This document shows positions 3,731-37,614 of a stretch of DNA of 40,206 nt, piece by piece. The notes under the pieces were generated by a model. That model was not told the DNA's origin. It did no database searches and worked only from the letters and a program-made list of their open reading frames with translations. The translations under genes and the position numbers were made by a program. Numbering within the stretch: position 1 is the first letter of the stretch; every line of letters starts with the position of its first letter. Source of the stretch: Octopus sinensis (taxonomy: Eukaryota); assembly GCF_006345805.1 (NCBI RefSeq), contig NW_021835359.1:1-40206 (forward strand), read 5' to 3'.

Positions 3731-5220
3731 CTTCTATTCCAAACTTGAAGTTCCACGTATTATAGAAGCAGTAGGTCTTGACTACGTGAAAGAGTTGAGG
3801 CCGAACGATATAACACCTCAAGGCGGCGAGCTGGCAGAAACGTTAGCACGCCGGGCGAAATGTTTAGCGATATTTCGTCTGCCGTTACGTTCTGAGTTCA
3901 AATTCCGCCGAGGTCGACTTCTATTCCAAACTTGAAGTTCCACGTATTATAGAAGCAGTAGGTCTTGACTATGTGGAAGGGTTGAGGCCGAACGATATAA
4001 CACCTCAAGGCGGCGAGCTGGCAGAAACGTTAGCACGCCGGGCGAAATGTTTAGCGATATATCGTCTGCCGTTACGTTCTGAGTTCAAATTCCGCCGAGG
4101 TCGACTTCTATTCCAAACTTGAAGTTCCACGTATTATAGAAGCAGTAGGTCTTGACTATGTGGAAGGGTTGAGGCCGAACGATATAACACCTCAAGGCGG
4201 CGAGCTGGCAGAAACGTTAGCACGCCGGGCGAAATGTTTAGCGATATATCGTCTGCCGTTACGTTCTGAGTTCAAATTCGCCGAGGTCGACTTCTATTCC
4301 AAACTTGAGTTTCCACGTATTATAGAAGCAGTAGGTCTTGACTATGTGGAAGGGTTGAGGCCGAACGATATATAACACCTCAAGGCGGCAAGCTGGCAGA
4401 AACGTTAGTACGCCGGGCGAAATGTTTAGCGATATTTCGTCTGCCGTTACGTTCTGAGTTCAAAATCCGCCGAGGTCGACTTCTATTCCAAACTTGAAGT
4501 TCCACGTATTATAGAAGCAGTAGTCTTGACTATGTGGAAGGGTGAGGCCAAACGATATAACACCTCAAGGCGGTGAGCTGGTAGAAACGTTAGCACGCCG
4601 GGCGAAATGTTTAGCGATATTTCGTCTGCCGTTACGTTCTGAGTTCAAATTCCGCCGAGGTCGACTTCTATTCCAAACTTGAAGTTCCACGTATTATAGA
4701 AGCAGTAGGTCTTGACTATGTGGAGGGTGAGGCCAAACGTATATAAACACCTAAGGCGGTGAGCTGGTAGAAACGTTAGCACGCCGGGCGAAATGTTTAG
4801 CGATATTTCGTCTGCCGTTACGTTCTGAGTTCAAATTCCGCCGAGGTCGACTTCTATTCCAAACTTGAAGTTCCACGTATTATAGAAGCAGTAGGTCTGA
4901 CTATGTGGAAGGGTTGAGGCCAACGATATAAACACCAAGGTGGCGAGCTGGCATAAACGTTAGCCACGCCGGGCGAAATGTTAGCGATATATCGTCTGCC
5001 GTTACGTTCTGAGTTCAAATTCCGCCGAGGTCGACTTCTATTCCAACTTGAAGTTCCACGTATTATAGAAGCAGTAGGTCTTGACTATGTGGAAGGGTTG
5101 ATACAAACGATATAACACCTCAAGGCGGTGAGCTGATAGAAACGTTAGCACGCCGGGCGAAATGTTTAGCGATATTTCGTCTGCCGTTACGTTCTGAGTT
5201 CAAATTCCGCCGAGGTCGAC
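3731..5220 (+). repeat. Tandem array of 8 x ~187-bp units (about 90 bp of flank plus about 97 bp of SINE-A 5' head)
   Basis: Units start near 3731, 3918, 4105, 4291, 4480, 4665, 4851 and 5035 and are near-identical. The last unit runs on into the complete SINE. Confidence 0.97.
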
Positions 5221-5354
5221 TTTGCCTTTCATCCTTTCGGGGTCGATAAATTAAGAACCAGTTACGCACTGGGGTCGATGCAAACGACTTAATCCGTTTG
5301 TCTGTCCTTGTTTGTCCCCTCTGTGTTTAGCCCCTTGTGGGTAGTAAAGAAATA
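5122..5354 (+). mobile_element. tRNA-derived SINE, family A (A1 tail), full length
   Basis: Head GGCGGTGAGCTG..GAGTTCAAATTCCGCC, body GCCTTTCATCCTTTCGGGGTCGATAAA, tail GTAGTAAAGAAATA. A 13-bp TSD GATATAACACCTC lies at 5109-5121 and 5355-5367. Confidence 0.92.
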
Positions 5355-23690: not shown

Positions 23691-24187
23691 ATAGAAATAA
23701 ATTTCAACTCCACAATCCTCGTGTTGTTGTTATTGACTGCGCAGACCTATGACCGAACACGTCGAAACTATGACCACTCTGTCATTTCCTCGGGAACATA
23801 ATGCTATTTAAAATTATCATTCTTGTCTCCTTTTTAAAATAGTAGAATGTGGTTATGGATGATTTGGTTGCAATTTCTAGCAAATCTTAGTGTGTAGCTA
23901 TTTATAGTTCAGTTGAGTGATTCAGTTCAGTAATTAAGTGAAACAATAGGATGCCGTTGATGGGATTCGAACCTTTAACATTTCGATATCCTATTGACTC
24001 GAATAGGCTCGAATCCCAAAGGAGAGGTAGTCAGTTTAACAGACGCCGTTCTTTCTCAAACTAGTTATTGAGAATGAAAATTACAAATAATGAGAGAAAA
24101 CAAATGCCTTTCCTGGAAATCGAAACCTTTATCCTAAGTTCTCTTTGTTAGCAACTTACACCACACCACAATTCAGGCACATATATT

Positions 24188-28039: not shown

Positions 28040-28170
28040 TTCCAATTTTGGCAAAGGCCAATAATTTTGAGGGGACAGTGTATTACTTGTATTACTCGGT
28101 ACTGTCCACCTGAGCACTTCACTGGTACTTTATTTTATCGACTCAGAAGGATAAAAGGCAAATTTAACTT
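28040..28170 (-). mobile_element. Decayed SINE-A body and tail running into the minisatellite
   Basis: Reads ACTGGTACTTTATTTTATCGACTCAGAAGGATAAAAGGCAAA. Confidence 0.7.
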
Positions 28171-28390
28171 CGATCAAAGTTAACCTCGATCAAAGTTAAC
28201 TTCGATCAAAGTTAACCTTGATCAAAGTTAACCGCGATCAAAGCTAAACGTGATCAAAGTTAACCGCGATCAAAGCTAAACGTGATCAAAGTTAACCTCG
28301 ATCAAAGTTAACCGCGATCAAAGTTAACCTCGATCAAAGTTAACCGCGATCAAAGCTAAACGTGATCAAAGTTAACTGCGATCAAATTTA
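28159..28390. repeat. 16-bp minisatellite (GATCAAAGTTAACCTC variants), ~14.5 units
   Basis: GATCAAA recurs exactly every 16 bp from 28172 to 28380 (14 times). A 32-bp higher-order dimer occurs three times. Confidence 0.96.
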
Positions 28391-30745: not shown

Positions 30746-30844
30746 TTCCTTTATTCTCGACATATGTTTCGAAGACTGCATATTCCTAATTTCGAAGGAA
30801 TAAGGGGTGCATTATGCCGCCTTCTCATCAGGAAAGACAAGGAA
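30746..30844 (-). ncRNA. Type I hammerhead ribozyme motif (Penelope-like pattern), apparently intact
   Basis: The minus strand reads UUCCUUGUCUUUC-CUGAUGA-GAAGGCGGCAUA..UAUGCAGUCUUC-GAAAC-AUAU-GUC^GAGAAUAAAGGAA. Stem I is 4 bp, a 3x3 loop, then 6 bp. Stem II is long and stem III is the palindrome ACAUAUGU. Confidence 0.82.
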
Positions 30845-35970: not shown

Positions 35971-36520
35971 GAGTGAGCGAGCAGAGCATGCCATCAAAGT
36001 GACACTGGGGTAAAATATACGAACCCAGTATACCCATCATGACTACCCGTCTGATAAGGGTACACCAGGCACATGCATCACAACCATATGTGCACGACAT
36101 GGTGATCTCATATCAAGATAAACAGCACATGACCTTGCAGGTGGAGCCCAGTTAGAATTTTCTTCAGATCGAGTAACCCATCCCGCTCAAAAGGTCCCTG
36201 AATAAGGGTTGTTAAGGACGTTGAACGAAACACCCATGTTTCCAGAGGTGAATTATTCAAACCCCAAAGAATCCTTCTCAAACATGGCTATGATGCTCCC
36301 CCACTACTTCTGCGTGATCAGAGATGCACATATCGTCAGCCACTAAGGGACATGCTCAACTGGTTAAGGTCAAACAACTGACAAGCAAATCTGTGGTATT
36401 GAGCAGAATATTTGCTGTAGCCCATCTTTTATACCAAGACAAAACAATGTACATGATAACACTTCCAATCAGTTAAGATCAGAAGCCATGAGAGCCACTG
36501 CCTGGTACTGCATCAGGGCA
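35971..36520 (-). mobile_element. Element D: 550-bp non-coding repeat embedded in (AAT)n
   Basis: Sharp boundaries with (ATT)n on both sides and a second truncated copy at 10219-10330. I see no ORF, TIRs or Pol III boxes. Strand is inferred from the truncation polarity. Confidence 0.75.
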
Positions 36521-36787: not shown

Positions 36788-36950
36788 GGCAAATTAGCAG
36801 ACTCGCTGCCGCTTAGTAGCATTTCTTCCGACTCAATACGTTTTTAGTTCAAATTTCGTCAAGGTTGACTTTACCTTTCATCCTTTCTGGATCGATAAAG
36901 TAAGTACCAGTTGAACACTGGAATCTACGTAACCGATTTACACAACCGGC
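36788..36950 (+). mobile_element. Decayed SINE family A
   Basis: Reads AGTTCAAATTTCGTCAAGGTTGACTTTACCTTTCATCCTTTC..CGATAAAGTAAGTACCAG. Confidence 0.75.
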
Positions 36951-36970
36951 CTTCTGTCGAGATTTGAAAC

Positions 36971-37033
<63 letters not shown>

Positions 37034-37040
37034 CAGCAGC
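36971..37040. repeat. (TAG)n(CAG)n microsatellite
   Basis: Direct reading. Confidence 0.95.
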
Positions 37041-37041
37041 A

Positions 37042-37129
37042 CAGCTCAGGACGCCAGTATACTACCAGACACCGTGTTTCGATCTCATGCGATCTCCTCA
37101 GTGACGAATACCCCGAGCGTTCAGAGCTG
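37042..37129 (-). ncRNA. Type I hammerhead ribozyme motif at the tip of a long hairpin
   Basis: The minus strand reads CAGCUC-U-GAACGC-UCGG-GGUAU-UC-GUCA-CUGAGGA-GAUC(GCAUGA)GAUC-GAAAC-ACGGU-GUC^UGGU-AGU-AUACU-G-GCGUCC-U-GAGCUG. All core nucleotides are present, stem II is 4 bp and stem I has several paired segments. Confidence 0.8.
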
Positions 37130-37614
37130 AACCGAAAATACTTGCTCCGATATAGAAATCGATAAAGACAACATTCACTGATTTGTGCGCAAGTTAGGCC
37201 AGGCTCCAAATGATTCTGGCTCACAGCGTTCAGAGTATTCGTTACAGATGAGATTTGGTGTGATTTAACAGCTATTTCTAGCATCTCTACAGACCAGGCA
37301 ATGGTTTTCTTCCAGGCTGGGAAGAAAGGAGGGGGGGGGTCTTCGTTTGCTATTGTTCGTGTTCTTGTATCTATCTTCTTTCTTAGTGTTAAGTATTGTT
37401 ACTTTGGTGCTGCCATTGTTATTTCCGCCCTTTGTTTTTAAAATGAATTACTAATACCATTTTTTAAAGAAAATTCCTTGCGATATAAACAAAAATAATA
37501 GATAAAAATTAGTATTATATTCAGATATAATTGAAAAGGTATCTTTCCCTTTGTTTTAATAGAACTAAAGTTCATGCATCTTTGAAAGCGTATGCAGCGT
37601 GTGCGCATGCGCAT

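What the first reader, a model, noticed from the sequence alone, without database searches (positions are those of the whole stretch)
36971..37129. Compact hammerhead ribozyme capping a long hairpin and followed by a (CUA)n tail
Seen (minus strand): CUGAGGA (37101-37095), stem II GAUC/GAUC, GAAAC, a near-palindromic stem III ACAC-G-GUGU, and GUC with predicted cleavage between 37068 and 37067. Stem I continues through four helices (GUCA/UGGU, GGUAU/AUACU, GAACGC/GCGUCC, CAGCUC/GAGCUG) and then runs straight into (CUG)n(CUA)n. It is unrelated in sequence to the other two motifs. Inference: a third ribozyme-bearing family whose 3' cleavage product would be ~26 nt plus a simple-repeat tail, possibly targeting or generating (TAG)n.
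Basis: partly seen in the sequence, partly recalled or inferred. Interest (0 to 1): 0.72.

Follow-up and report, generated by a model that had tools for sequence, protein, structure and literature searches.

The report
Fossil retrozyme fragment beside SINE tail
This is a real self-cutting-RNA (hammerhead) motif inside a truncated, likely dead copy of an old 320-base jumping-RNA family of a known animal kind, and the CUA run after it is most likely the tail of an unrelated neighbouring repeat, not part of the element.

Summary
The hammerhead is real: canonical type I core, palindromic stem III, cut site 37068/37067. It lies in a fragment (37212-37044, minus strand, 84% identical to the family majority) of a dispersed, old, non-coding 320-nt repeat (105 segments in 65 other loci, a lower bound). 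The family has partial tandems, head-to-head pairs (12 of 65 loci) and 3' ends clustered about 135 and 175 nt past the cut site: a non-LTR retrozyme with a Penelope-type insertion footprint. The tail idea fails. None of 78 other hammerhead-bearing copies is followed by (CTA)n. The (TAG)n starts at the 3' end of a plus-strand SINE-like repeat, and six other copies of that repeat carry the same tail without any hammerhead. This copy is solitary, has an altered loop II and stem I bulge, and is predicted to misfold as a monomer, so it is likely inert. No autonomous partner was found; cleavage and expression are untested. The scan has already reported younger families of this kind elsewhere in this genome. 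New member of a known kind; low interest.

The parts
37044..37212 (-). Fragment of the 320-nt hammerhead repeat family (about monomer positions 178-320 plus 24 nt past the cut site)
   Evidence: nhmmer with a profile of other copies: 37212-37039, E=1.4e-48; blastn 37205-37044, 84% to the column majority
37062..37107 (-). Type I hammerhead: core CUGAGGA 37101-37095, stem II 37094-37081, GAAA 37080-37077, palindromic stem III 37077-37069, predicted cut 37068/37067
   Evidence: sequence; Rfam RF00163 22.7 bits, E=0.0039; descriptor versus shuffles
37044..37129 (-). Extended stem I hairpin, a family feature, partly broken in this copy
   Evidence: folds; pair counts on 20 copies
36971..37043 (+). 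(TAG)21 then (CAG)n microsatellite, most likely the 3' tail of the SINE-like repeat
   Evidence: TRF; same junction in 6 other SINE-like copies; pure CAG run in other runs
36788..36970 (+). SINE-like repeat (label from recall) ending in TTTGAAAC directly before the microsatellite
   Evidence: many homologues in the window and loci, several with simple-repeat tails after the same end motif
37217..37253 (+). Possible short inverted (head-to-head) arm of the same family; uncertain
   Evidence: E=0.014; 1 of 500 shuffles scores as high; but its last 9 nt also belong to another repeat that starts at 37245

Best explanation
The finding is a solitary, 3'-truncated copy of an old non-coding 320-nt repeat that carries a type I hammerhead motif, was likely pasted in by a borrowed Penelope-type reverse transcriptase and is likely inert today, and the adjoining (CUA)n is likely the reverse strand of a neighbouring SINE-like repeat's tail. 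Shown: hammerhead core, dispersed family, 320-nt period, partial tandems, head-to-head pairs, clustered 3' ends, no (CTA)n after other copies, the same TAG tail on other SINE-like copies. Inferred: tandem transcripts were cut by the hammerhead (in pairs, through the palindromic stem III) into monomers that could circularise; a Penelope-like RT/GIY-YIG protein nicked AT-rich DNA and began reverse transcription inside the RNA at two sites about 135 and 175 nt past the cut site; this copy later lost its last 110-150 nt when the SINE/microsatellite cluster landed or a deletion joined them, and has since drifted.
For: Family: 105 segments in 65 of 66 non-redundant other loci, median 79% to the majority, monomer 320 nt, 41% GC. 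31 of 105 segments exceed one monomer (longest 791 nt); 7 loci hold two hammerheads in tandem. Head-to-head pairs in 12 of 65 loci, tail-to-tail in 0. Of 88 3' ends at 25-185 nt past the cut site, 18 fall in 171-182 (6.6 expected; scan-corrected p=0.005) and 22 in 128-145 (9.8 expected; p=0.012); only 5 of 105 lie within 30 nt of the cut site. This matches the partial tandems, inverted 5' copies and 30-40 bp tail described for Penelope-like elements (PMC8557442) and two internal RT start sites in an AC-rich loop downstream of the ribozyme (PMC11167929). Two sister copies pass Rfam's gathering score (2 of 20 loci). Decay looks neutral: CpG letters changed in 39% on average against 16% of others; little covariation. 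Tail. This copy: 6 of 11 letters of loop II plus the 3' bulge differ from the majority; the hammerhead-competent fold costs 8.9 kcal/mol against 2.0 for the majority; no sister copy within 3 mismatches of its 3' strand.
Against: No autonomous element sharing this repeat was found: 0 of 20 GIY-YIG loci examined (of 147 hits; 1.5 kb flanks only) contain it, so the mobiliser is inferred from the footprint. The 128-145 peak weakens under other alignment scores (16 of 109), and both end windows were chosen after seeing the data. No array longer than about 2.5 units was seen. This copy keeps more CpG than most (3 of 23 changed; only 1 of 65 others as low), keeps 24 of 27 pairs (6 of 51 others as high), has one compensatory pair in stem II and an intact core, and its stem III self-duplex is predicted at -9.3 kcal/mol, so it could still cut as a dimer. 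The missing 3' part was not found in the window, so how the junction formed is not shown.
Confidence: 0.8

Rival explanations
1. The repeat is the pseudo-LTR of an extinct autonomous Penelope-like element, and the copies are 5'-truncated insertions of it rather than of an independent small RNA.
For: The same end signature and inversions are expected; retrozymes and pseudo-LTRs are related in frogs (bioRxiv 10.64898/2026.07.22.740005); the genome has many GIY-YIG hits (147).
Against: Upstream of the hammerhead, long copies repeat the monomer rather than entering unique sequence. Shared 5' flanks among the 83 segments then held were, by inspection, only inverted family arms or other common repeats. 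None of 14 picked ORFs (of 77 listed) matched RT or GIY-YIG. The motif is the canonical form with stem III, whereas metazoan PLEs usually carry minimal forms.
Confidence: 0.1
2. This copy is a maintained or re-tuned ribozyme (a rare younger subfamily or a domesticated single copy) that still cuts a transcript running into the repeat.
For: Intact core, low CpG decay, one compensatory pair, and changes clustered in loop II and the stem I bulge, the two presumed tertiary partners; the core is unchanged in 4 runs under at least two organism labels.
Against: Overall non-CpG divergence equals that of other copies (22 of 138 against a mean of 16%); it shares at most 7 derived letters with any copy, like the background best-partner value; 21 of 51 other copies also keep the core; three stem pairs are broken; predicted misfold; no close sister.
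Confidence: 0.07
3. One reading: the element targets or generates (TAG)n, and the 3' cleavage product carries a simple-repeat tail.
For: The junction is real in other runs; some Penelope-like clades prefer microsatellites.
Against: 0 of 78 and 0 of 101; genome-wide pattern hits only the window; no (CTA)n on the 5' side of this copy; the run begins exactly at the SINE-like end motif, as in 6 of 7 other genome hits, none with the family nearby.
Confidence: 0.03

Closest known systems
Metazoan non-LTR retrozymes (coral, mussel, axolotl: PMC7229834; vertebrate survey: bioRxiv 10.64898/2026.07.22.740005)
   Same: Canonical type I hammerhead in a protein-free unit of about 300 nt with GC below 45%, in dispersed monomers and short tandems; highly self-paired unit (majority monomer z=-5.8).
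   Different: Old and decayed (about 21% from the majority); longest array seen about 2.5 units; this copy is a half-monomer; circular RNA and cleavage untested; no cephalopod description seen in searches.
Penelope-like elements and their pseudo-LTRs (PMC8557442, PMC11167929, PMC4209133)
   Same: Hammerhead upstream of the 3' end, partial tandems, adjacent inverted 5'-truncated copies, two 3' ends about 40 nt apart, the first AC-rich.
   Different: No ORF; canonical rather than minimal hammerhead; no autonomous partner identified.
Rfam Hammerhead_1 (RF00163; Schistosoma and newt satellite type)
   Same: Core, 4-bp stem II with a 6-nt loop, short palindromic stem III; the family's loop II resembles the Rfam consensus loop.
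   Different: The window copy scores below the gathering score and departs in loop II and the stem I bulge.

Membership tests
Type I hammerhead ribozyme | Conserved core (CUGANGA, GAAA, UH) | tested here: met
Type I hammerhead ribozyme | Stems I, II and III, open at stem I | tested here: met
   All can form; stem I proximal has 4 pairs, two of them G-U; not the minimum-energy fold
Type I hammerhead ribozyme | Rfam gathering score (34 bits) | tested here: not met
   22.7 bits for the window copy; met by sister copies L043 and L034
Type I hammerhead ribozyme | Loop II to stem I tertiary-contact letters | tested here: inconclusive
   Family loop resembles the Rfam consensus; window copy differs at 6 of 11 letters; the structural paper was not held, so the contact map is recalled
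Type I hammerhead ribozyme | Self-cleavage | not testable with these tools
   needs an in vitro assay
Non-LTR retrozyme | Non-coding unit of 150-450 nt, GC below 45%, with a type I hammerhead | tested here: met
   320 nt, 41% GC; no attached RT ORF among those scanned
Non-LTR retrozyme | Tandem units with two or more hammerheads (family level) | tested here: met
   7 loci with two hammerheads 240-417 nt apart; 31 of 105 segments longer than a monomer
Non-LTR retrozyme | This copy is an active unit (two consecutive hammerheads, the definition) | tested here: not met
   one hammerhead, about half a monomer
Non-LTR retrozyme | Expressed as linear and circular monomer RNA | not testable with these tools
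   only DNA contigs were laid
Penelope-mobilised element | Partial tandems and adjacent inverted 5' copies | tested here: met
   12 of 65 head-to-head, 0 tail-to-tail
Penelope-mobilised element | Two 3' ends 30-40 nt apart (tail), internal to the RNA | tested here: met
   peaks at 128-145 and 171-182; windows chosen after the fact, first peak broad
Penelope-mobilised element | Autonomous RT/GIY-YIG partner sharing the terminal repeat | tested here: inconclusive
   0 of 20 GIY-YIG loci examined, of 147 hits and 5029 candidates
Microsatellite-tailed or (TAG)n-targeting element | Copies consistently abut (CTA)n/(TAG)n | tested here: not met
   0 of 78, 0 of 101

The most novel reading that the evidence does not exclude
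This single copy is a retrozyme hammerhead that the host kept and rewired: it escaped CpG decay, held its catalytic core across populations, swapped both tertiary-contact partners together, and cuts a host transcript just before an antisense SINE tail.
Probability: 0.07. Interest if true: 0.6.

Novelty: new member of a known kind. Interest (0 to 1): 0.22.

Why it matters
As a locus it matters little: a fossil fragment next to a SINE tail. The family adds one more line of evidence on an open point, which enzyme mobilises animal retrozymes. The papers read propose Penelope-like elements from co-occurrence and sequence kinship and leave the mechanism open. Here an old protein-free family carries the Penelope insertion footprint, with 3' ends far from the ribozyme cut, which suggests priming inside the RNA. 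Earlier scan notes claim the same for younger families in this genome, and those are better material. The tail hypothesis that drove the first score is disproved.

Tried and rejected
Whole-window Rfam scan by E-value was swamped by microsatellite-driven miRNA matches. An apparent peak of 5' ends near monomer position 174 was partly an artefact of a poor first majority sequence; after refinement it is weak (10 of 105 against 3.9 expected, uncorrected p=0.006) and is not used. Covariation on 20 copies, 19 of them picked for a complete hairpin, is slight (82.0% paired against 80.3% shuffled, 8 of 500; pairs with two-sided change 11 against 9.2, 95 of 500): expected for neutral decay of one master, and no support for selection on copies. 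The rest of the truncated copy was sought on the far side of the SINE and AAT cluster and not found. The sequence upstream of 37212 has no family homologue except a different repeat. The inverted arm at 37217-37253 was downgraded to uncertain. A younger subfamily for this copy was sought and not found. No RNA holder listed in the run search; this is no evidence on expression. No tRNA gene in the window. Look-up of earlier scan notes by sequence found nothing. The structural paper on tertiary contacts was not held. Repbase and Dfam could not be searched and no supplements were opened, so the family may already be catalogued.

Full report
Observation. The minus strand reads as described: core CUGAGGA at 37101-37095, stem II GAUC/GAUC with a 6-nt loop, GAAAC, the palindrome ACAC-G-GUGU and GUC, giving a predicted cut between 37068 and 37067. 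Rfam Hammerhead_1 matches at 22.7 bits, E=0.0039 in a 411-nt scan, under the gathering score of 34. A strict descriptor hits once in the window and never in 60 shuffled windows; a relaxed one adds a long-stem-II motif at 30831 and a doubtful one at 23793. The stretch is held by runs of 5 studies, one possibly the source. Of 4 non-source runs laid, 3 span 37022-37560 in one contig, and none lists a changed letter in 37044-37125. All 4 differ at 37040-37041 in a way that makes a pure CAG run. The window is a 40-kb contig of a 2.7-Gb, microsatellite-rich genome. The label octopus-like is from recall of its SINEs and from earlier scan notes, not from a call of mine.

The family. Three DNA searches of the own genome returned 40, 44 and 40 matches from 86, 164 and 100 candidates, of which only 40 were scored and 30 fetched each time, so counts are lower bounds. 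Non-self matches are 68-83% identical to the queries. With 2 loci, 91 loci were held; 25 were dropped as duplicates or as the window itself, leaving 66, of which 65 hold the repeat. The column-majority line repeats with a period of 320 nt, 41% GC, and folds far better than shuffles (z=-5.8, 0 of 200; a majority sequence, not a real copy). There are 105 segments, median 79% identical to the majority; 31 exceed one monomer and the longest is 791 nt. Seven loci have two hammerheads in tandem, 240-417 nt apart. Two of 20 loci scanned pass Rfam's gathering score. The window copy covers 37212 to about 37044, 84% to the majority, and ends 24 nt after the cut site. No coding partner was seen: none of 14 picked ORFs of 77 matched RT or GIY-YIG, and 0 of 20 GIY-YIG loci, of 147 hits, contain the repeat within 1.5 kb.

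Insertion footprint. Head-to-head pairs occur in 12 of 65 loci and tail-to-tail in none. 3' ends avoid the cut site (5 of 105 within 30 nt) and cluster downstream. The queries favoured copies covering monomer positions 185-320, so I tested only the 88 ends at 25-185: 18 lie at 171-182 (6.6 expected) and 22 at 128-145 (9.8 expected), with scan-corrected p of 0.005 and 0.012. The first site is AC-rich and the second AT-rich. The upstream peak is broad and drops to 16 of 109 under other scores. Passages of PMC8557442 describe partial tandems, adjacent inverted 5'-truncated copies and a 30-40 bp tail as Penelope features. PMC11167929 (passages and the second part of the main text) shows reverse transcription starting at two internal sites, in an AC-rich loop downstream of the hammerhead and without homology to the target, with ribozyme cleavage not needed in vitro. 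That a Penelope-type enzyme made these insertions is therefore an inference from likeness.

The tail. None of 78 other hammerhead-bearing instances has (CTA)4 or (CTG)4 within 90 nt of the cut site, and none of 101 segments has (CTA)4 or (TAG)4 within 60 nt of an end (before the majority was refined). A genome-wide pattern for hairpin end plus (CTA)3 hits only the window. On the plus strand the run starts directly after TTTGAAAC, the 3' end of a SINE-like repeat at 36788-36970 whose other copies often carry simple-repeat tails at this point. A pattern for that end plus TAG units hits 7 other places against 0 for the reversed control; 6 of 7 are ends of the same repeat, one with mixed TAG/CAG units, and none has the hammerhead family within 1.5 kb. 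Whether the run is tail or target of the SINE-like repeat is not settled; either way it is not part of the hammerhead element. The lost 3' part of the copy is not in the window.

State of this copy. The catalytic letters are intact, as in 21 of 51 other copies. Loop II and the 3' side of the stem I bulge differ from the majority at 6 of 11 letters, turning the bulge into a plain helix; the majority loop resembles the Rfam consensus loop. That these two parts make the rate-enhancing contact is stated in general in PMC6155905 and PMC4209133 (passages); the detailed map is recalled. A changed letter in loop III lets the core mispair. The hammerhead-competent fold costs 8.9 kcal/mol, against 2.0 for the majority and 2.1-18.7 for the 16 of 70 instances that keep core and closing pairs; the window ranks sixth of these. 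Short palindromic stem III motifs need a second copy (PMC4209133), and none lies in cis. In favour of remaining activity: the stem III self-duplex is predicted at -9.3 kcal/mol; 24 of 27 pairs are kept with one compensatory change; only 3 of 23 CpG letters changed, where the mean is 39% and 1 of 65 copies is as low. Against a distinct subfamily: ordinary non-CpG divergence, no excess of shared derived letters, and no close sister by pattern. Uneven methylation among loci would explain the CpG retention (own knowledge, untested). In the vertebrate survey 8 of 9 predicted dimers did not cleave.

What is known. PMC7229834 (passages and Discussion) defines metazoan non-LTR retrozymes as tandem units of about 300 nt, GC below 45%, with type I hammerheads, expressed as circles, and names Penelope-like elements as candidate mobilisers. 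bioRxiv 10.64898/2026.07.22.740005 (parts 1-3 of 5) links them to pseudo-LTRs in vertebrates. The family meets the sequence criteria; expression and cleavage could not be tested; the window copy fails the two-hammerhead criterion for an active unit. Searches listed no paper on a cephalopod retrozyme (listings only); supplements, Repbase and Dfam were not seen. Searches gave context listings. Earlier scan notes report several younger families with the same footprint in this genome; my reading was noted beforehand and their claims were not re-tested.

Verdict. Real hammerhead, new member of a known kind, likely inert, with a coincidental tail. Interest 0.22.

Noticed in passing
window 30831-30759 (-): A second type I hammerhead motif with a 54-nt stem II hairpin and a short stem III; not matched by the profile of this family.
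   Followed up: partly
window 3731-5222: Eight tandem 187-bp units, 95% matches, apparently including a SINE-like head.
   Followed up: no
window 35971-36520: A 550-nt repeat-like stretch with (AAT)n arrays on both sides, between two SINE-like copies: a nested stack in a microsatellite.
   Followed up: no
window 37245-37309 (+): Fragment of another multi-copy repeat (81% to L032; raised contig depth).
   Followed up: partly
L019:2949 (+), L027:2942 counted on the - strand: A different hammerhead-bearing repeat with a longer stem II, near-identical in two loci.
   Followed up: no
L002:677 (+), L017:2334 counted on the - strand: A further hammerhead-like repeat shared by two loci.
   Followed up: no
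own genome, e.g. L073, L074: GIY-YIG hits in open frames of 780-883 aa, many with identical scores, suggesting young Penelope-like elements.
   Followed up: partly
L025:388-1242 (+): Open frame with a von Willebrand factor A domain near a family copy; probably a host exon.
   Followed up: no
window 28159-28390: 16-bp minisatellite, 14.5 copies.
   Followed up: no
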